Assembly: GCA_021613535.1 (NCBI GenBank) | Contig: CP075493.1 | Span: 10,141,179-10,205,178, forward strand | Direction: 5' to 3' | Source of the DNA: Adineta vaga | Taxonomy: Eukaryota > Animalia > Rotifera | Length of the DNA stretch: 64,000 bases | In this document: piece by piece, positions 36,984 through 48,660 of the stretch | How positions within the stretch are numbered: the stretch's first letter is position 1 | Layout: each line of letters starts with the position of its first letter | Program-made: the position numbers and the translations under genes | Notes under the pieces: model-generated | Seen by the model: the letters and a program-made list of their open reading frames with translations, nothing else | Database searches by the model: none | What the model was told of the DNA's origin: nothing

Positions 36984-37526
36984 ATGCAAGCTACCGCCGG
37001 TATCCAAAAACTTAAAGGTACTTGGGAATACGTTGATGGTGAACATTTCGATGATTACATGAAAGAAATCGGTGTCGGTTTCGCTCTTCGTCAATCAGCT
37101 AAATTAATTAAACCAAAATTGATCATTCAAGAAAATGGAGGTAAATGGTCACTCAAAAGTGAATCAACCCTTAAGACAGCTTCATATGAATTTACACCTG
37201 GCACTGAATTCGATGAAACTCGTCTCGATGGTGAAAACTGTAAAGTTAGTTCAACTAAAATCTTGGAAAAACTTATCTTTTTCATCTGTCTGTTTATTTA
37301 GTCCATAATCAAATTTGAAAATGATAAATGGGTACACACAATGCGCGATAAAAATGGTAAAGAATCGACAGTTACACGATGGGTTGATGATCTAGGTCAA
37401 CATCAAGTTGTAAGAGAAAAAAAACGATTTTTTTTCCTTCTGAAAGTTGAACTTTATTTTTTCCTCTTATAGGACATGAAAGCTGGCAGTGTTACAGCTC
37501 GCCGTTGGTACAAACGTGTTGATTAA
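36984..37526 (+). CDS. Cytosolic fatty-acid-binding protein (FABP / iLBP lipocalin family); 3 exons, about 137 aa.
   Basis: MQATAGIQKLKGTWEYVDGEHFDDYMKEIGVGFALRQSAKLIKPKLIIQENGGKWSLKSESTLKTASYEFTPGTEFDETRLDGENCKV | SIIKFENDKWVHTMRDKNGKESTVTRWVDDLGQHQV | DMKAGSVTARRWYKRVD*. The G-x-W signature, beta-barrel periodicity and ...R.Y.R C-terminus are typical of FABPs. GT/AG introns at 37250-37299 and 37393-37472. Confidence 0.75.
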
Positions 37527-38199
37527 ATCTGTTTTTAATCAACATCATCAACATCATTATCACACGCGTTGCAGAACAACTAGAAGATATCTTTCTATCT
37601 TTTATCATTATTGATTTGCTTTTGGTTTTTTGATCATATTCGTTTTTTATACAACCGTAAAAAAAGAAAGTAGCAACAGATGTTTTCCTTCTTTTCTGTT
37701 GTGATCTTTTCTTTTCTTTTGTATGCGTGTGTGTGTAGTTGGTTTTTGAAAAAAAAACTATAATAAACACAAAAAAAGCTATAAAATGAAATATTTGTTA
37801 ACTGCTTCGAATGTTATTTGAAACATGGAGAATGAAAAACATGATACTATTTGCGTTATTCACTATGGAAAGGGTACGTATCTTTCTATAAATAAGTTAC
37901 CAAATACAAACAGGCATTTCAACTAATCGCGAAATTAAATCACATCCAACGTCTGCATATATCAACATATTTTTCCTATCATATTCCATGCTAAAAAAAA
38001 CTTTTTTTATTATTAAATTTCATCAAATAATTATATATCATAAATAAGTGTACATGTTCACTTCACTCATCGATTTTGAAACTAATTCGAAAGAATTCTC
38101 CTATTACCATGTTTTTTTTTCTTATACTGTTGAAATCGATACGTCAATACAAAAACACGATGAAACTTTCTGCTCTCTCTCACTATTTTTTTTATGTCA

Positions 38200-39317
38200 A
38201 ATGGCGAAACTCAGTAACGAACAACAAGAAACGGAACTTGCTCAATCTCCGGACGTGGAATCAATAAATGAAACGACTCAAATTGAACAATCGCATTCGA
38301 AATCCCTGATTGAATCTCTTCTTTTTGCTCAAACTCAAGAGAATGATACGAGAAAAAAGAAGATCAAAACTAATCGTCAAAAAGAGCTAGTAATCCTGTT
38401 TGAATAAATCTGATTCTTTTCTTTGTTCTTCTTCTTTCTCTCTCTCTCTCTAGGAACGTTTAACAAAAGCAACAAAAAGTATATTTAGTTGTTGTGAAGA
38501 ATTGAATATTATATGTGAACGGATTGATTCAATTCTATCAACTCATCGAACAATACTACTTCCTGTTTGTCGTTCACTAGATATACTCAATTCCGGTCGT
38601 TTATCTTATGAACAATTTCGATTGAGTAATACTAAAACTTTCTAGTTAGTTTTTTTTGTCAAAAAGAACAACTTTCGTTTTATTCATAGTAATCAGAGAT
38701 TTCTTGCCGGAGATGTCATTAGAGGATAGTTTTGTTCTTACAAAATTATTTCAAGTCAATGATTCGATTGATTATCGAACAATGTTAGATGACAAATTGA
38801 ATAGTGGTATCCTACGTTTTATTACGCCTTTGTCTGTTCCTCAATCATCAGAAACTATTCTTGAAAAGAGTCCACTCGTACCAAATGACTCGTTACAATT
38901 TAATCATTCTAAGTAGCATTAATATCTACTGTAATGGAAAATGTTTCTTCTCTTTTTTTCAGATCGAGATATCTAATAGTACATGTTCGTCTGATTACTT
39001 TCGATTCCTATGACGCATATCTCGGTCATGTTCATCTGACTGTTTCTGATCAAATCAGTATTTATACTCTATCAAAGATACTCATTGATGAAACAGATCT
39101 AGTTACAAAATCTATTAGTATATTTCGTGAAAAAATACAATCACGAAATACTCTTCTTGATCCACAACGTTCACTTGAAAGTTATGGTTACATAGGAGCA
39201 TATGGAGATGGTACACATCAACAACAATTTCCAAAATTTACATTCTATTATGATTTTCTACCAATGCACATTGGTCGTGATTGTCCAATATTGAAATGTG
39301 ATTATTACATGAAATGA
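38200..39317 (+). CDS. Uncharacterised protein; about 4 exons.
   Basis: Collinear exons: MAKLSNEQQETELAQSPDVESINE... (38200-38400); ERLTKATKSIFSCCEELNIICERIDSILSTHRTILLPVCRSLDILNSGRLSYEQFRLSNTKTF; exon 38680-38916; terminal exon 38960-39317 (...LITFDSYDAYLGHVHLTVSDQISIYTLSKILIDETDL...DCPILKCDYYMK*). No family recognised by eye. Confidence 0.3.
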
Positions 39318-41717
39318 ATGATTGGATTTAGAATATCTCTTCAGTGTGTTACATAAATGAAAGAAAAATAAAATTAACATCATACATAACGGAAATGGTA
39401 ATGATTAAGAAAATATGCATTGCTTTTACTTCATTTCTTTTTTTGTTCAATAAAGTCCATTTACTATATAAACTAATTTTATGCAAAGTAGCTATTTGAC
39501 TTAAGGTAATAGGCAAAGAAATGAAAAGGTCGAAGAGTGAAGTTTGCTTCGATCATATTTTGCCTCATGATCAATATGTATTTGTGTTTCTTTACTTAGA
39601 AAAATATTTTATACGTAGTAGTCAACATCGTAAATCGACTTTTTATGGGCTTGAATGCTCAATTACAGTGAATTTTTCATTTTCTACAAGCTAAAAAAAG
39701 ACTGATTAGATCGTAATCCATTCTAATCTCTCATTTTTTCATTAGGAGTTTAAAAGAAAGAAAATTACGCAGATAGTGGCAACTAAATCATATTCACAAA
39801 GGGCATACATACACACCCACTTAATATTCATCTTGAATCTTTTTTTTTGGTTTTCTTCGTTCATCATCATATGCTAAATATTCTTTGGATGGTACTAGAA
39901 AAACCAGTATTTCAATTATTTGAGATAGATCAGAGACGGTTGTTGACGATAGAGAGAAACAAAATATTCGATTATAATATATGACGATATTTCTGACCTA
40001 ACAACAACATTCAAATACTTCTTAATAATGGCAAGGATGATAAAAACGAAGAATGACATAAGAATGAAAATGATTTGGTTGACATTCATTTCGGCTGTTC
40101 TTTCTATTTTCTTTCTACTCATCAGACCTCTTATCTATCTGCTCATCCTTTTCCGTTCTTCTATCATGGAATTTATTCGATTGTGTGTAACTCTTCTATT
40201 CCGTTCGAATATGATCTGTCTACATGCTCAAGAAGACATTCGTCACAGTCAATAATAGTATAGCCAAAGGCAAATAAGAAAAGGTGATGATGATCAGCAT
40301 CATAATGCCAATAGAGAAAAAGAGAGACATAGAAACAAACTGAGAGATAGATATAGAGAAAAAGAATGAGCCGAAGTGCCGTCATTGGATTTTCTTTCTC
40401 TCTTACTCTCTTCTTCTTTTTCTTCTTCTCTATGAAAGAAGTTTTCTCTTTCTATACCAGTCGGATACCATTTAAACGATTTCGAGTGCGTTAAATGTTC
40501 TTAGAATAATTGATGTCTCAACATACTACTCATGAATGGACATCTATTAATCATAGCAACATGAAAAATTATTGAAGTTCAAAGTCAAACAACAAAACTT
40601 ACATACTCTGTTTACAAAAAATATGTCTCGCAGTAACATTCGATCAAATAGCAGCAGACCTTTTTGTAAGTACCATTGTCTTTCATTGCTTCTTTTCTAT
40701 TCATAAGAAACAAATGATTTGAATTTTTTATGACGCATTACATTAATAGTTACTATTCATATATGTTATACTTTTGCCAATTTTATTTTGACATCCATCT
40801 ATCTTCATTAGAAAATACACTGTACAACGGCAAGTAAAACTTGATCTATGTCAACTCGATTAGTTAATTCTTATCTTTTCTTTCGATTCTTGTTAGTCGA
40901 AGTGTATCAATGTTATGCATGAGAAAATTTCCATTAGTATTCAGTTTCAAGGAAGCATCTCTAACAAAAAAGAAAGTCTTCGAATGTTTTGTTTTCATCG
41001 AATTATAGAACAAGTAAAGCGTGTTATTACGATCTGATTATCAACTTAGTATCGACCATTATCAAATTATTTATATTAATGAGGTGTCCTCAAATGACAA
41101 AGTCATTTTAATTCTGTTGAAAAGAAGAAAAAAAACTCTTTCCTAGTGACAAATATAGATTTTCATTATGAAACTTCAACCAAGAAATCTTCTCTTTCCT
41201 TTGTTTCATAGAAATCAATTATTTAAATGGAAAAATCTCTTCTATTTCCTATTTGTGTCTCATACTTATATACCTGTAGTGATCACAGCATGCTAGTTGA
41301 TTAGCGAAAAAGATCTTTTTTTTTTGTGAAAAGCATGCTTAAGAATAGAATCATACACTACATGCTGTTATACTATTACAATAACAAGTTTCCATCTTTG
41401 CTCCAGTCGATCACGTATAGCTTGCAAAGACTTTTGCATCTTTACTATCGTTTCTAATTTGATCAATGATGAAATGAATAATATAACACATTTAACCTTA
41501 GCAAAAAAGAGAAAGAAAGAAAAACAAATTGATAATCATGTCGATAAGAATTTTCTCCAGATGCAAGTATAAGAGTACTGAGGGAATACAACAAAAAAAA
41601 ACAACATATGAATAACATGAAAACAAAATTCTCTTTTTGATGTCATCATTTTCCTTTTCCTGTTTCATTTGACTTCATCTCTTCATCAATTTAGATCGAG
41701 TTAAAGTTGTCAATGGC

Positions 41718-42902
41718 ATGTGTTCAACAACATCCATAGATGAAATTGAAAATATTCATCTACTCAACGTTCTCAATTGGTCACCTTTCGAAGATTCAAA
41801 TATCAATAAATCATCAACAACAATTAAAGATGATAATGATTCTAAGTTAAAGAACTCTTACAATGCCGTACAACTTTCAATTGAATTACAAAAGAAAATG
41901 TTAAAGTAAACAAACATCACTAAGATTTTTTTTTCATATTGTTTTATTTAGTTTAAAATCTTTATTTGTTGATTCATCTGGTCATCTTGTAAACTATTCA
42001 CAACTACGTTCAAGTAGTGTTTACAATGATTTATGTGACATGGCGAAATATTTAACGACAATCAATCTTGATAATGTCACTGAAAATGAAAGAAAAACGT
42101 TTTTTATCAGTAATTATCAATAGATATCGATTTTTTGCTTGTAGAAGAGAAATACTTTCGTTTTTAGATCTTTATAATGTCTTGACCATTCATGGGATTG
42201 CATCGTTAAGTGATTTACCAAAATCTACTTTTGATTTAAATCAATTCTGGAAAACGACAGCTTATAAAATCGGTCCACATATTTATTCATTAGATGACAT
42301 TGAACATGGCATCTTACGCGGTTCGAAAAACTTCACATGTTTCATATAAATTCATAAACAAGAGAATGTCTGCTTTTTTAGGTAACAAACCTCATTCAAA
42401 TTGTACTCAACGACATTTTACATATAATGATCCTCGTACAAGATATTGCATGCGTCGTTGTGATCCACGTATTCATTTTGCATTGAACTGTGGAGCACGA
42501 TCATGTCCAATCATATCTATTTACTCATCAACAAATCTTGAAAAAGCTTTGAATATGTCAACAACATCATATTGTAATGCAGAAATCGATATTATTCCTC
42601 AAAATGCTGAAATTCATTTATCGAAAATCTTTCTTTGGTATAAAACTGATTTTGGACGTACAGAATCAGAAGTGCTACGGTAAGTTTTCCATTCATTTCA
42701 TCTTCTTAATCACGTGTAATATTTGAATTTTAGTTGGATTGCAAATTATATTGACGAACCAAAACAATCATTACTGAAAACTGTACTAGAACAACATGGA
42801 ACCAAAGATGGTATACAAATTTCATATAAAATCTATGATTGGATGTTGAATAATCATGATGGTTTAATATCGAGTACGACTAATGTCAATCTTTGTCAAT
42901 AA
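41718..42902 (+). CDS. DUF547-domain protein; about 5 exons.
   Basis: Spliced translation ...ERKTFFI|NLYNVLTIHGIASLSDLP...QFWKTTAYKIGPHIYSLDDIEHGILRG|NKPH...DPRIHFALNCGARSCPIISIYSSTNLEKALNMSTTSYC...LSKIFLWYKTDFG matches the DUF547 core (kLaFfINlYNalviH...; hFALnCGA.SCP). Stop at 42900-42902. Confidence 0.6.
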
Positions 42903-43889
42903 AATGATGATTGTTAACATTTAGTTCTTGAACTTGTACTGATAAGAAAAGAAAGACAGTTTATTTTTTGTTTTGTGAAGAATAATAATAAAAAAGGACG
43001 AAAAACAAAGAGTGAAAATGCAAGGAAATAGCCAACATCAAACATTACAATAAAATGAATTATGTTTGTGATGTGTCTATGTATGATTCTTTCAACATTT
43101 AATAGTTGAAAGAATACAATATTAGTCAAGCTATCTGAAGCTTGTGGCCAAAAATATAGATGAAACTATAATAGATCTTGTTTCGATTAAGTAGAAAATG
43201 ATGAACAAAACCTTGTTTCGTAACATGATTTTTGATTGCTTGACATACAGGAAGGTGTTCATCATTCGACTGATCGTCACAGACCTGATTTAAAATAATT
43301 AAAAATCGTATGATCATCCTGGAGCTCGTTTACAAGGAATCTAATGGTGAGAATAGTCAACTGAACGAATATCTTGTGATTCTACAATTTTATATAAATA
43401 TACAACAGCGATCTGACTAAGATATTGCTGTATTATCAAAACAGAACAAAATGGCACCTCAAAAGCAAAAAGAATTCAAGATTTAAATGAATATCTTTAC
43501 ATATGTTTTATTATGATCGAAGTGTGATGCAGTCGGTGAAAAACAGACGACGTGTGTTCGAAATGGAAAAGTGATTAATTTCAAATCTGAAGAATTTATT
43601 AGTTACTTGTTTCACGAGATTGTTTCGTCTAATGTAAAATAGAAACTCTCATTCCCATGTGAATTCAAGCATGATAGTTATCTTTGTAATTTTTACGAAA
43701 CAACAGATTAAAACAATAAAAAAATATTCGCAACGAGTCTTCTCATATACTTGGTACACCTATTACCGACATATTGTATCAATGAGATCAAAAATAGTAG
43801 CGTCATTTTCTAATTTAAGTGACGATTCAGAGTGTCAAAAAAGATGAATTTCAAAATGCAGTTATTTATTCCACTTCATCTGTTATCTA

Positions 43890-44930
43890 ATTGGAAAGAT
43901 CTCTTCTATTTTCTATTTTTGTCTCATACTAATATACCTGTGGTGATCACAGCGTGTTAGTTGATTAGCGAAAAAGATCTTTTTTTTGTGAAAAACATGC
44001 TTAAGAATAGAATCATACACTACATGCTGTTATACTATTACGATAATAAGTTTCTATCTTTTCTATTTTCATCTTTATTATCGATTCTAATTTGATCAAT
44101 GGTGAGACGAATAATATTACACATTTAGCCTTAGCAAAAGAAGAAAGAGAGAAAGAAAGAACAACAAATTGATAATCGTGTCGATGAGAATTTTCTCTAA
44201 CTGCAAATATAAAAGCACCAAGAGGATGCAAAGAAAAACAACATATAAATAACATGAAAACAAAATTCTCCTCTTGATCTCATCCTTTTTCTCTTTCTGT
44301 ATTCTTCAAAGATTTAAATACTAGTAAATCATCAGCAACAATCAAAGATGATAATGCCACCGGAAACGAACGAAAAATGTTTTTTATCAGTAATTATCAA
44401 TCGATATCGAAAGATTCGCTTGCAGAAAAGAAACGTCTTCATTTTTAGATCTTTATGTCTCGATCATTCATGAAATTGCATCGTTAAGTGATTTGCCGAA
44501 ATCTATTATTGATTTGAATCAATTTTGAAAAGCAACAGCTTTACTTATGAAATTTATTTTGCGTTGAATTGTGGAGTACGATCATATCTATCTGTTCATA
44601 AACAAATATTTAAATTCAGAAGTGTTGAACTATAATATTCGATATTATCGATTATAAGTTGTATTGATAGATTATATTTATAACGTTAGGATGTCGAGTA
44701 CAGTTAATGTCAATTTTTATCAATGTAAAATTATGATTGTTAACATTTCATTCTTGAACTTATGATGATAGGCGAAGAGTCATATTAAACAGGAAGAACA
44801 GTGTACGATATTATCAAATAAAGAACAAAGGAATGATTTATTTCAGAAATCGAAAAAAAAGGTGAAAATGTAAGGAAAGAGACAACATCAAACATTACAA
44901 TAAAATGAATTATTCTTTTGATATGTGTAT
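43890..44930 (+). pseudogene. Decayed tandem duplicate of the upstream DUF547 gene plus its 5' and 3' flanks.
   Basis: Near-identical flank blocks: 41221-41420 vs 43890-44070 (...tctcatact[t/a]atatacctgt[a/g]gtgatcacagc[a/g]tg[c/t]tagttgattagcgaaaaagatc...) and 42990-43090 vs 44860-44940 (...caacatcaaacattacaataaaatgaattat...). Exon remnants survive at 44300-44600 (...tttttatcagtaattatcaatcgatatcga...; ...tgcatcgttaagtgatttgccgaaatct...; gcgttgaattgtggagtacgatcat) with deletions and no intact ORF. Confidence 0.7.
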
Positions 44931-45184
44931 ATTTTTGTGGAAGGTCAATATTGATATTTCAACTATCACAAACGGCGATAGATAATGATAATATTTTTGA
45001 TATGTAAAATTTTTTCATTATTAAATATTCGCATCTGACTACTCACAAAAACAAAGAATGGAATATCTATCTTCATAGAATTTACCAGAGGTATAATGAT
45101 ATGTAAAGGAGCCAAAAAAATGGAATCAAATGAAACAACATTCACCGGTGGGGTTAACACTATTAGAATACGTACGAACTAATT

Positions 45185-47162
45185 TTAATCATATGCACTT
45201 AAACCTTCTTGACTATGAGAAAACGAATTATTAACCATCATAATTGGTTCTGTTAAATATTGTTGATCTGTTGTTGATTTAATAGCTCGATAATGTAGTT
45301 CATCTGTTGTTGTACTTTCTTTTAATGGTAAGATTTCATTCGGTATATCAACGAGACAATGAAAAATATCGTATGAAGGTGATAAAATACGTTTTTCGAA
45401 AAGACTTTTAGCTAATTGAGACACAATCAGTATTGTTGCCAAACTTATAAGCATGCATAAACTTTTCGGTGGAATATATGGACCAAAATGAATTGTTGCT
45501 GGAATACCTACTAATGGTTCACCAATTAGAAATCGAAAGACAAAACCAGTAATATATGCTGCTAATGAACCATACGTATTTGTGTGTGGAACATAAACAA
45601 CACAAAGTAATTGAGGAAACAATATGACATAAACAAGATCCGAACTTAAATACCAAAGGACATAAATTGATGAAACGAGAATACCTATTCCAGCAGCTCC
45701 AATTCCAACAAGAAATATTCCGATACGCATGACAAGTAAGACTTCTCTCTCAGATGCCTAGAGTATTTACAATGTTATAAGATGATATTGAAAGAAAAGA
45801 ATACATACTTGATCACGAAAAACAAGTTTCCAGATATTACGAGCAAACATCGAACTAGCACTGAGTACACTTGAATCAGCACTAGACATAACTGCAGCAG
45901 AAACGGCACCTAAACCAATGAATCCAATAAATTTTGGACATAAATGTAATAGAACTAATGGTAGAATTAATTTTGCTGCTTCAGGCGAATGAATATCTTT
46001 GTTAATGTCATAATCTGTCATATTCCAATCTAGGAACAAGAAAAAATATATTAGTATGAATATCGATGAATATTTTTCTACAAACCGGTTGATTTTGCAA
46101 TCGCTCCGATGAGTACAGGTGGAATTGCCAAAACGATACATCCCACTGCAGCACAGAAGGATAGATACATTGCCTTTTTTGCTGATTTTGCTGATAGAAC
46201 ACGTTGAAAATATACCTAAAAGCCGTAGAACAGAAGAAAGTGATTAGATTAATTCATCGCAATGTTTGTAGCATGCAATAACACACAAAAAGAAAGCTAA
46301 TATGAAAAGACGTCTTGATAGTCACGCAAAACAAAACAAAGAAGGATTTTGATTTACCTGCCATGGTATTCCACCAAAGATTAAGAGTAACATACTATCT
46401 GTCCATTCTACCATTTGTGATTTCTCAAGATGTCCACGCCATTCAGGCCATGTTAACCTGATATCACCCACACTTTTATGACTCATAGCAAATGGAACAG
46501 CAACCCATAGGCCAACGAAAATGAATCCAAGTTGAACAACATCTGTATAAGCTACCGAATATAGTCCACCGAAGAGAGTATAAATGATCACAACCGCAGC
46601 TAGAAATAGTTTGAAATCATCAATTATCTCATTCCTACATTAACATCTTGAAAAATGATTCACCTGACAAAATAATTGATGCTGTTATTGAAACATCGGT
46701 GAAAATGACACTAATTGTTGCTCCTAATGCTGATAGAATAGCTGCTGACCAAAAGACTTCTCCAAGTAGTGCTGGAATAAATAATAATCCACCCATTCGT
46801 TGTCCATATTTACGTTGAAATGGATCGAGCATAGTAACATATCCAGCATCACGCATCGGTTGGGCAAATAATAATCCTCCAATAACTAAACTAATAGCAT
46901 AACCAATTGGTGCTTGACAAGCAAGAAGACCAGTAGAAAAAACTTGTTCAGCCGTCCCATTGATATAAGCTCCTCCCACCCAAGTTGCTGTCATTGTAAA
47001 AATTCCAACTAATAAACCGATATTTCTTCCAGCTAACATAATCTCTTCGGTATCGGGTGTTTTTTCCGATGATTTTTGTTTTCGTCCAGCCCATATTCCA
47101 ACAATTAAAATTAGAACATAAAAAACAATAACGGCTGCAAGACCACCAAGATGTACACTCAT
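45185..47162 (-). CDS. CHT1: High-affinity choline transporter (SLC5A7 / CHT1; SLC5 sodium:solute symporter family); multi-exon.
   Basis: N-terminal exon [28 protein letters not shown]...[109 protein letters not shown] is nearly position-for-position alignable with vertebrate and nematode CHT1 (...VFYLLIL.VGIWA...[29 protein letters not shown]...[60 protein letters not shown]). Downstream exons (46322-46591, 45767-46141, 45185-45730) continue the 13-TM fold. Confidence 0.8.
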
Positions 47163-48660
47163 TGTCTAAAAAATGATAAAATCCGTTCTTTCTTTAACAT
47201 CGGAAAAAGAAAACTGAAGGAATAGTATCTTCTAACCGGAAGTTTCTTTTGCCAATAGGAAATTAATTGAGAGAGGGTATAGATGAATAGAGAAAAAAAA
47301 ATGGTGAAGTATCATAGAAAGATAATGGTATTCAAAAACGAGAATAACATTATTGTTTAATGTCATTCAAAGTTCTCCTTTTTTTTGCCTTCTTCTCTTC
47401 TTCTTTTTTCCTCTGCTCCTTCTCTCTTTTCAACTGAATCACATAAATTTTTCTTGCCAATTAATTTTTTTCTAAAAAAATTACAGACAATAAACTTACG
47501 GACGAGTTGATCGTATATTTGTATTTTACGGGTTGATGTTTGTTCCCGTTTCTGTTTCTCTCTATCTCAATTCTGTTTCTATTACAATGAACATCATATT
47601 AGTTTCTTTGTCGCTCGATATTTTCCTTTTTTTTTCTTTTTCTTTAACTTCTTCTATCAAAATGCATGCACTGCGCGGTTTAACGAGGAAGATTTTGCCT
47701 TGGAACAGTAACTAGACAATTCATTTATTTGATTATAGATATATATATTCCATAAGAACATCGTCGAGATTAGACCGAAAAAACACGATTTGTTTTTCGA
47801 TAGTTCTGTTCATGCATTCACTGAGAAAGAGGAATGAGCAGGCGTTTTTCTTCTATCTCTTTTTTTTCTCTCTTAATGATACCATGTCAGCCGAGATTGA
47901 GCACGGTTGGAATGACAATCATCGTTCCAAAGATAGGCTAGATGTGACAAGGGAATTCGATAGAGAAAAAAAGAGAAAAAAATATAGATAGATGAATAGA
48001 CAGAAGATTTTTCTACTTCCTTCTTTTGAAAAAAAAACAAACAAAACCATTCAGAGATATATAAGTAGTGAATGTCATGATTATTGTTACGATACATTTC
48101 GATTTAGCGATTAATCTTAAATCTTCTTCTTACCGCGATGAAATTGAAACCTAAGAAAAACATGTCGTTCTGATCTGTTTATTGAAGCAAATAAAGTTGA
48201 TTCATTCGAAACAACATCGTTGTTTCGAATTAGTATGAAGAAAAAAATCATTGATATAAAATTATTAGCACAATTATGTTTCATAGATTCAGAAAAGATA
48301 GCTAATCTTTCGTCATCGACGATGTACATGCATGAGAGAATGAAAAAAGCTAAATAATGACCTGTTAACTGTTGCATAATTTGAAACTAGCAGCCCATTA
48401 TTTATGATAATGATAGCTGATGATGTTAATAACAAATAATAACGTTTGCTTCTTTCTCTTTTTTTTTGATGAGATAGATCATCGGAATTTGTACTAGAAG
48501 AAGTTCTCTTTTAATTATATGAATAGTTGTGAAAGATATCATTTCGTATTGCTATAGGATCTCGATAATACTTTCGTTTTATTTGAATAAAAAAAAATCG
48601 TATCGTTGATTGTATAACTTACTAAAAGTTAATTAAAAACAAAAGAAGTGAAATTATAAA

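What the first reader, a model, noticed from the sequence alone, without database searches (positions are those of the whole stretch)
41200..44940. Tandem segmental duplication generating a decayed pseudocopy of the DUF547 gene
A roughly 1.9-kb unit (promoter-proximal flank + DUF547 gene + 3' flank) is repeated about 2.7 kb downstream. The 5' flank (41221-41420 vs 43890-44070) and 3' flank (42990-43090 vs 44860-44940) are more than 90% identical with only scattered substitutions. The coding part of copy 2 has large deletions and no intact ORF, so the flanks are better preserved than the exons. This points to a recent duplication followed by relaxed selection. The conserved 5' block also contains a shared sequence, 'atacctgt[a/g]gtgatcacagc[a/g]tg[c/t]tagttgattagcgaaaaagatc', that may be regulatory.
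Basis: seen in the sequence. Interest (0 to 1): 0.55.

Follow-up and report, generated by a model that had tools for sequence, protein, structure and literature searches.

The report
Truncated decayed duplicate of rotifer gene
In the rotifer Adineta vaga, most of one gene of unknown function (DUF547) was copied once just downstream of itself without its promoter or first exon, and the copy has since decayed into an ordinary dead gene fragment.

Summary
The repeat is real and collinear. Window 41214-43080 (copy 1, 1,867 bp) recurs at 43878-44930 (copy 2, 1,053 bp), with 994 alignable bases at 86% identity.

The window is Adineta vaga. Copy 1 is the 3' five-sixths of an intact six-exon DUF547 gene that reproduces a public protein exactly.

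- The "promoter-proximal 5' flank" lies inside the gene's 1,029-nt first intron. The true first exon is at 40623-40665. Copy 2 therefore never had a promoter or a start exon.
- More than 90% identity holds only for the first 189 nt and the last 82 nt. Identity does not differ significantly between flanks and exon-derived pieces, and the position of the deletions fits chance.
- A 797-bp non-coding spacer of unknown origin (43081-43877) separates the copies.

Orthologous loci in A. ricciae, A. steineri and Rotaria, and an A. steineri paralogous DUF547-SSF locus (likely ohnolog), all lack spacer and copy 2. The duplication is therefore specific to the A. vaga lineage.

Exon substitutions, polarised with A. 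steineri, fall 41 on copy 2 and 9 on copy 1. Copy 2 keeps only four protein fragments, in three reading frames, with stop codons.

Verdict: an ordinary unprocessed, 5'-truncated duplicate pseudogene. Interest is low.

The parts
40623..40665 (+). Exon 0 of the intact DUF547 gene (MSRSNIRSNSSRPF + 1 nt). It lies outside the duplicated unit.
   Evidence: A six-frame search located the peptide. The six-exon model translates exactly to P0001 / UJR16365.1. The N-terminus is conserved in Adineta, Rotaria and Didymodactylos proteins.
40666..41694 (+). Intron 1 (1,029 nt, GTAAGT...TTTAG). The duplication's left breakpoint falls inside it, at about 41210-41214.
   Evidence: The long first intron is alignable in A. 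steineri, A. ricciae and Rotaria.
41214..43080 (+). Copy 1 of the duplicated unit (1,867 bp). It comprises the 3' 481 nt of intron 1, exons 1-5 with their four short introns, and 178 nt of 3' flank.
41695..42902 (+). Exons 1-5 of the functional DUF547 gene: 41695-41905, 41952-42109, 42168-42320, 42382-42679 and 42734-42902 (includes the stop). Introns are 46, 58, 61 and 54 nt.
   Evidence: Pfam DUF547 PF04784, E 2e-37, 128 bits against a cut-off of 27. 100% identical to the A. vaga protein.
41270..41306 (+). Conserved intronic motif ATACCTGTAGTGATCACAGCATGCTAGTTGATTAGCG. The copy-2 counterpart is at 43934-43970.
   Evidence: Two matches in the window against 0 expected. The motif is largely conserved in intron 1 of A. 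ricciae and A. steineri.
43081..43877 (.). Spacer or filler between the copies (797 bp, GC 30%). It is non-coding and of unknown origin. It opens with an 11-bp perfect inverted repeat (43086-43096 / 43106-43116).
   Evidence: It matches nothing elsewhere in the window or in 5 A. steineri loci, and pairwise blastn of window 38000-48000 and 37000-48000 against L006, L008 and L010 returned no block in the spacer beyond its last ~13 nt (43865-43877). The longest stop-free stretch is 69 aa. No protein homologues in any frame. No metagenome match for a 26-mer.
43878..44930 (+). Copy 2: a 5'-truncated, deletion-riddled DUF547 pseudogene fragment (1,053 bp).
   Evidence: 994 nt align to copy 1 at 86%. 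tblastn finds only residues 46-62, ~121-169 (with a stop), 219-241 (with a stop) and 333-343, in three frames. Intron 1 and intron 3 sequence is retained.
45185..47162 (-). Convergent neighbour: a sodium:solute symporter (SSF) gene. Its 3' end marks the ancestral downstream context of copy 2.
   Evidence: ORFs. Collinear with the SSF genes of A. steineri, A. ricciae and Rotaria.

Best explanation
In the A. vaga lineage, after its split from A. ricciae and A. steineri, a 1.87-kb segment was duplicated in direct orientation immediately downstream of itself. The segment runs from the middle of intron 1 of the DUF547 gene to about 180 bp past its stop codon. About 0.8 kb of unrelated filler sits at the junction.

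The upstream copy stayed attached to the promoter and exon 0 and remains the functional gene. The downstream copy had neither, so it was non-functional from birth. It has since evolved neutrally, accumulating about 14% substitutions, stop codons, frameshifts and about nine deletions of 17-238 bp that removed roughly 810 bp. At least one deletion occurred between short direct repeats.

Shown: collinearity, truncation, lineage specificity, and asymmetric relaxed constraint.
Inferred: the molecular mechanism of the duplication (end-joining or template-switch repair with filler DNA, versus unequal exchange followed by a later insertion), and the lack of function of copy 2.
For: - Collinear blocks have E-values down to 1e-110, and there are only two copies in the window.
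- The exact six-exon model places the left breakpoint 548 nt inside intron 1.
- A. steineri (5 assemblies), A. ricciae, Rotaria sp. and an A. steineri paralogous DUF547-SSF locus (likely ohnolog) all have DUF547 and the convergent SSF gene about 500 bp apart. They align straight across the point where A. vaga carries about 1.83 kb extra.
- In the intron block, d(copy1,copy2) is 0.12 raw, against 0.23-0.26 to A. steineri.
- Exon substitutions polarised with A. steineri fall 41 on copy 2 and 9 on copy 1 (p=6e-6). The same direction appears with two outgroups, 54 versus 7.
- Copy 2 retains intron sequence and only four protein fragments with stops.
- Deletion D2 is flanked in copy 1 by ACAATTAAAGATGATAATG / ACAATCAATCTTGATAATG.
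- Identity is homogeneous across blocks, and the deletion placement is compatible with chance.
Against: - The copy-2 branch shows about twice as many substitutions in exon-derived pieces (41/348) as in the intron-1 block (23/385), Fisher p=0.006. This is unexpected under strictly uniform neutral decay. It could reflect alignment noise or indel-associated mutation near the deletions, a later gene-conversion tract, or constraint on the intronic block.
- The origin of the 797-bp spacer is unexplained.
- No read-level, population or transcript data could be consulted. Assembly correctness and the silence of copy 2 are therefore inferred, not shown.
Confidence: 0.85

Rival explanations
1. Copy 2 is kept, at least in its intron-derived 5' part, because that block carries a functional element. 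This could be an enhancer, an intronic promoter or a small RNA containing the conserved GTGATCAC motif. The element now acts a second time, between DUF547 and the convergent SSF gene.
For: - The motif is conserved in the first intron of A. ricciae and A. steineri.
- Block 41214-41402 is the best-preserved part, at 91.4%, and has no large deletion.
- The copy-2 branch rate is lower in the intron block than in exon pieces (p=0.006).
Against: - Overall heterogeneity of identity is not significant (p=0.35 and 0.12).
- Sparing of the first 450 bp from deletions happens by chance in 19% of trials.
- Between species the block is no better conserved than the rest of intron 1 or the short introns: 69-74% to A. 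steineri and 62% to Rotaria.
- There are no Rfam or tRNA hits.
- Within the motif, copy 2 differs at 3 of 37 positions, which is the local average.
Confidence: 0.07
2. The two copies were homogenised locally by gene conversion after an older duplication, so the apparent age and the better-preserved ends are conversion artefacts.
For: - The ends (41214-41402 and 42999-43080) are 90-91% identical, against about 84% in the middle.
Against: - The differences are not significant and there is no sharp tract boundary.
- Absence of the copy from all outgroup loci independently supports a post-speciation origin.
Confidence: 0.05
3. The apparent duplication is an assembly artefact, either a falsely duplicated haplotype or a mis-joined paralogue.
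For: No evidence for it. It cannot be excluded directly because no reads were available.
Against: - The copies differ by 14% and by about 810 bp of deletions, and they are separated by unique sequence. False haplotype duplications would be expected to be near-identical (own knowledge).
- The A. steineri paralogous (likely ohnologous) locus is only 62-72% identical to the A. vaga locus, so copy 2, at 86%, is not a mis-joined ohnologue.
- The source contig is an 18.1-Mb contig.
Confidence: 0.02
4. Copy 2 is a retrocopy (processed pseudogene) or part of a dispersed mobile repeat, rather than a DNA-level tandem duplicate.
For: - The right boundary (~43080) lies about 20 nt after an AATAAA at 43058-43063 (sequence).
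Against: - Intron 1 sequence (about 420 nt) and intron 3 are retained in copy 2.
- No poly(A) tract follows either copy.
- The copy sits exactly adjacent to and collinear with its parent.
- There are no TE-like ORFs or terminal repeats and no further copies in the window.
Confidence: 0.01

Closest known systems
Unprocessed (duplicated) pseudogenes arising from partial tandem gene duplication
   Same: The copy is adjacent, in direct orientation and collinear with its parent. It retains introns, lacks the 5' end and promoter, and carries stops, frameshifts and deletions. Substitutions are concentrated on the dead copy.
   Different: A 797-bp filler of unknown origin lies at the duplication junction. 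Otherwise there is no difference in kind.
Putative decayed duplicates reported in bdelloid genomes (Nowell et al., bioRxiv 10.1101/226720: TBLASTN hits of predicted proteins to unannotated regions)
   Same: It belongs to the same organism group and is the same class of object: a protein-similar, unannotated region attributed to decayed gene duplicates.
   Different: Those hits were reported in bulk at a median of 30-35% amino-acid identity. This copy is younger (86% nucleotide identity), tandem, and datable against outgroup loci.
Processed pseudogene / retrocopy
   Same: It is a non-functional gene copy lacking a promoter.
   Different: Copy 2 keeps intron sequence, has no poly(A) tail and lies in tandem with its parent.

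Membership tests
Unprocessed tandem-duplicate pseudogene | Collinear similarity to a parent gene, including non-coding parts (introns and flanks) | tested here: met
   Five or more collinear blocks cover intron 1, exons, intron 3 and the 3' flank.
Unprocessed tandem-duplicate pseudogene | Disabling lesions and no intact ORF | tested here: met
   tblastn finds four fragments in three frames with in-frame stops. About 810 bp are deleted, and exon 0 and the ATG exon context are missing.
Unprocessed tandem-duplicate pseudogene | Relaxed constraint on the copy relative to the parent | tested here: met
   Polarised exon substitutions fall 41 on copy 2 and 9 on copy 1, p=6e-6. With two outgroups the split is 54 versus 7.
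Unprocessed tandem-duplicate pseudogene | Derived state: absent at the orthologous position in relatives | tested here: met
   A. steineri, A. ricciae, Rotaria sp. and an A. steineri paralogous (likely ohnologous) locus all lack it.
Unprocessed tandem-duplicate pseudogene | Not transcribed or translated into a functional product | not testable with these tools
   No expression data were available.
Processed pseudogene (retrocopy) | Introns absent, with a poly(A) tract at the 3' end | tested here: not met
   Intron 1 and intron 3 sequence is present in copy 2, and no A-tract follows 44930 or 43080.
Transposable element / dispersed repeat | Multiple dispersed copies, terminal repeats, or TE-encoded proteins | tested here: inconclusive
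   There are only two copies in the 64-kb window, no TE-like ORF and no protein hits for the spacer. The rest of the A. vaga genome could not be searched.
Assembly false duplication | Near-identical copies at haplotype-level divergence | tested here: not met
   Identity is 86%, with large deletions and a unique spacer. Read support could not be tested.
DUF547 (Pfam PF04784), parent gene | Pfam match above the gathering score | tested here: met
   128.4 bits against a cut-off of 27, E 2e-37, residues 103-230 of the 321-aa exon 1-5 query (124-251 of the 343-aa protein), covering profile positions 2-124 of 125.

The most novel reading that the evidence does not exclude
The intron-derived 5' block of copy 2 (43878-44300) carries the conserved GTGATCAC-containing motif. 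It could be maintained as a duplicated cis-regulatory element. Alternatively, because it lies just beyond the 3' end of the convergent SSF gene, it could be a template for antisense or small RNAs that cross-regulate the parent DUF547 gene. Under either reading the fragment is a co-opted regulatory duplicate rather than junk.
Probability: 0.05. Interest if true: 0.45.

Novelty: new member of a known kind. Interest (0 to 1): 0.13.

Why it matters
This matters little beyond annotation. It flags an unannotated pseudogene fragment that gene predictors or similarity searches could mistake for a second DUF547 gene.

It is a cleanly dated example of how a partial tandem duplicate decays in a bdelloid rotifer. 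The decay is deletion-biased, with at least one deletion between short direct repeats. The breakpoints and the filler could serve as one data point for studies of double-strand-break repair outcomes in bdelloids.

The parent gene family, DUF547, remains functionally uncharacterised; a full-text search returned 28 papers that mention it, and none of the 12 listed has it in its title or abstract.

Tried and rejected
- **Structured RNAs.** Rfam scans of 40000-46000 (E-value mode) and of the whole window (gathering mode), plus a tRNA scan, found nothing. The only hit was a chance sub-threshold bacterial sRNA.
- **Spacer origin.** I ran sensitive blastn against the window and the A. steineri loci. 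This gave only weak AT-rich hits, the best a 37-nt match to A. steineri intergenic DNA at E=0.002, which I judged to be chance. A six-frame ORF scan, a protein search with all stop-free stretches concatenated and a metagenome scan with a 26-mer were all negative.
- **Spacer as decayed upstream or downstream sequence.** I tested whether the spacer is a decayed copy of the sequence just upstream of the left breakpoint (40417-41213) or of the downstream SSF 3' end. There is no similarity, so I rejected both.
- **Independent A. vaga assembly.** The A. vaga protein is not in the gene-position index, so this could not be checked.
- **Small ORF at 40028-40255.** This ORF in the conserved upstream block is not frame-conserved in A. 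steineri, so I rejected it as a gene.
- **Deep conservation of intron 1 with Rotaria.** This first looked striking. The short introns and intergenic DNA align equally well, so it is not special.
- **MAFFT four-way alignment.** It over-aligned some copy-2 pieces, giving 78% exon identity. I therefore took the pairwise-based counts as primary.
Full report
**Source and parent gene**

The window has 30% GC. A five-exon reading of 41718-42902, with canonical GT-AG introns of 46-61 nt, gives a 321-aa protein. It matches Pfam DUF547 (PF04784, E 2e-37, 128 bits against a cut-off of 27).

A database search returns a 100% identical 343-aa protein, "hypothetical protein I4U23_003268 [Adineta vaga]", on an 18.1-Mb contig. 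It also returns orthologues in A. steineri (83%) and paralogues or orthologues in Rotaria and A. ricciae (about 72%).

- The 22 extra N-terminal residues are encoded partly by a separate first exon at 40623-40665.
- The six-exon model 40623-40665, 41695-41905, 41952-42109, 42168-42320, 42382-42679 and 42734-42902 translates exactly to the public protein.
- Intron 1 is therefore 1,029 nt (40666-41694).
- The MSR..SSRPFYRVK N-terminus is conserved in Adineta, Rotaria and Didymodactylos proteins, so exon 0 is real.

**Check of the observation**

The repeat exists and is collinear on the same strand.

| Copy 1 | Copy 2 |
|---|---|
| 41214-41663 | 43878-44300 (E 1e-110) |
| 41787-41838 | 44305-44356 |
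| 42046-42263 | 44326-44541 |
| 42471-42543 | 44552-44614 |
| 42850-43080 | 44674-44930 |

A global pairwise alignment gives 994 aligned positions at 86.0% identity. Copy 1 is 1,867 bp and copy 2 is 1,053 bp.

Neither DNA nor protein searches find a third copy in the window. The quoted motif occurs exactly twice, against 0 expected by chance.

The more-than-90% identity claim holds only for 41214-41402 (91.4%) and 42999-43080 (90%). 41432-41662 is 85.5% and the exon-derived pieces are about 84%.

**What the "5' flank" is**

The left boundary of the repeat (~41210-41214) lies 548 nt inside intron 1. The duplicated unit is therefore the 3' half of intron 1, exons 1-5 with their short introns, and 178 nt of 3' flank.

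Copy 2 never contained the promoter or exon 0. The copy was a 5'-truncated gene fragment from the moment it formed.

**State of copy 2**

tblastn of the parent protein against 43081-45150 recovers only these fragments:
- residues 46-62;
- residues ~121-169, with W to stop in "NQF*K";
- residues 219-241, with a stop;
- residues 333-343.

The fragments lie in three different frames.

About nine deletions of 17-238 bp, measured relative to copy 1, remove roughly 810 bp. The 220-bp deletion between 41838 and 42058 is flanked in copy 1 by an imperfect 19-nt direct repeat, ACAATTAAAGATGATAATG / ACAATCAATCTTGATAATG. Copy 2 keeps one hybrid copy of that repeat. This is the signature expected of slippage or microhomology-mediated deletion (the mechanism is inference).

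Intron 1 sequence and the whole of intron 3 are retained, so copy 2 is not a retrocopy.

**Polarity and age**

I fetched the following comparison loci:
- orthologous loci from five A. steineri assemblies;
- A. ricciae;
- Rotaria sp. Silwood1;
- an A. steineri paralogous DUF547-SSF locus, likely the ohnolog.

In every one, DUF547 is followed after about 500 bp by a convergent sodium:solute symporter (SSF) gene.

A. steineri aligns to window 39965-42976 and then directly to 44822-47982. A. ricciae aligns to 38069-42995 and then 44821-47996. Rotaria aligns to 40022-43044 and then 44674-47993, with its single 3' region matched by the ends of both copies.

So about 1.83 kb (spacer plus most of copy 2) is an insertion specific to the A. 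vaga lineage. Copy 1 carries the ancestral upstream context and copy 2 the ancestral downstream context, as expected for a tandem duplication.

In the intron-1 block, raw distances are 0.12 between the copies and 0.23-0.26 to A. steineri. JC-corrected values are 0.13 versus 0.28-0.31. The duplication is therefore roughly 40-47% as old as that species split. It is not especially recent.

**Selection**

Polarising with A. steineri, exon-derived sites show 41 changes on copy 2 and 9 on copy 1 (binomial p=6e-6). A four-way alignment with two outgroups gives 54 versus 7, though that alignment over-aligns some pieces.

Copy 1 is under purifying selection and copy 2 is not.

**Are flanks better preserved than exons?**

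Not demonstrably.
- Identity is statistically homogeneous across the eleven aligned blocks (chi-square p=0.35) and across the intron-1, gene-body and 3'-flank classes (p=0.12).
- Flank versus exon identity gives Fisher p=0.2.
- Randomly re-placing the nine observed deletions leaves the first 450 bp as intact as observed in 19% of trials.

One residual asymmetry exists. On the copy-2 branch, exon-derived pieces changed about twice as often as the intron block (41/348 versus 23/385, p=0.006). GC content differs too little to explain this (0.31 versus 0.29).

Candidate explanations are alignment noise and elevated mutation next to the many deletions, a gene-conversion tract, or constraint on the intronic block. 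I could not discriminate among them. This is the only observation that keeps a functional reading alive.

**The motif**

ATACCTG..GGTGATCACAG..TGATTAGCG is largely conserved in intron 1 of A. ricciae and A. steineri, so it may be a real intronic element of the parent gene.

Several points limit this:
- The surrounding block is no better conserved between species than the rest of intron 1 or the short introns.
- No Rfam family or tRNA matches it.
- In copy 2 it differs at 3 of 37 positions, which is the local average.

**The spacer**

43081-43877 (797 bp, GC 30%) shows the following:
- no significant similarity to anything in the window or in the five A. steineri loci, and no alignment block beyond its last ~13 nt in the L006, L008 and L010 comparisons;
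- no long ORF;
- no protein homologues in any frame;
- no metagenome match.

It is not a decayed copy of the sequence upstream of the left breakpoint, nor of the SSF 3' end. It begins with an 11-bp perfect inverted repeat.

Its origin is unexplained. It could be filler captured during the repair event that made the duplication, or a later insertion. Both are inference.

**Artefact?**

14% divergence, large deletions and a unique spacer are not what I would expect of a false haplotype duplication (own knowledge). The A. steineri paralogous (likely ohnologous) locus is only 62-72% identical to the A. vaga locus, so copy 2 is not a mis-joined ohnologue. Read-level confirmation was not possible.

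**Comparison with what is known**

This is a textbook unprocessed, partial tandem-duplicate pseudogene. Nowell et al. (bioRxiv 10.1101/226720) already attribute many unannotated protein-similar regions in bdelloid genomes to decayed duplicates. They also describe the bimodal intron-length distribution into which the 1-kb intron 1 fits. A full-text search for DUF547 returned 28 papers, none of the 12 listed naming it in title or abstract.

**Verdict**

The core interpretation is right but wrong in three details: promoter, preservation of flanks, and recency. The object is ordinary: a new member of a known kind, of low interest.

Noticed in passing
window 40050-40400: A non-coding block upstream of DUF547 exon 0 is 80-94% identical to A. 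steineri and 72-90% identical to Rotaria sp. That is as well or better conserved than the DUF547 exons (A. steineri 77-89%; Rotaria 76-83%). A 75-aa ORF within it (40028-40255) is not frame-conserved, so the block is probably a promoter or 5'UTR element rather than a gene.
   Followed up: partly
window 40666-41694: The first intron of DUF547 is 1,029 nt, while the other four are 46-61 nt. A long first intron is retained at the orthologous loci of A. steineri, A. ricciae and Rotaria.
   Followed up: partly
window 41270-41306 (and 43934-43970): A motif of about 37-45 nt containing the palindrome GTGATCAC is conserved in intron 1 across three Adineta species. Its function is unknown.
   Followed up: partly
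window 43086-43116: The spacer opens with an 11-bp perfect inverted repeat, ATTCTTTCAAC / GTTGAAAGAAT, separated by 9 nt. It sits right at the duplication's right breakpoint.
   Followed up: no
L009/L010 4001 (Rotaria sp. Silwood1); L006 12743-19584 (A. ricciae); P0010 (A. steineri): Several public gene models look imperfect. Rotaria P0006 and P0003 lack the conserved MSR..RPFY first exon. The A. ricciae model fuses the SSF and DUF3712 genes into one 1,688-aa product. A. steineri P0010 lacks the conserved RKTFFIN segment.
   Followed up: no
window 45185-47162 (-) and loci L001-L010: The convergent gene pair DUF547 -> <- SSF symporter, about 500 bp apart, is conserved across Adineta, Rotaria and the A. 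steineri paralogous (likely ohnologous) region. A. vaga is the only locus where the gap has grown to 2.28 kb.
   Followed up: yes
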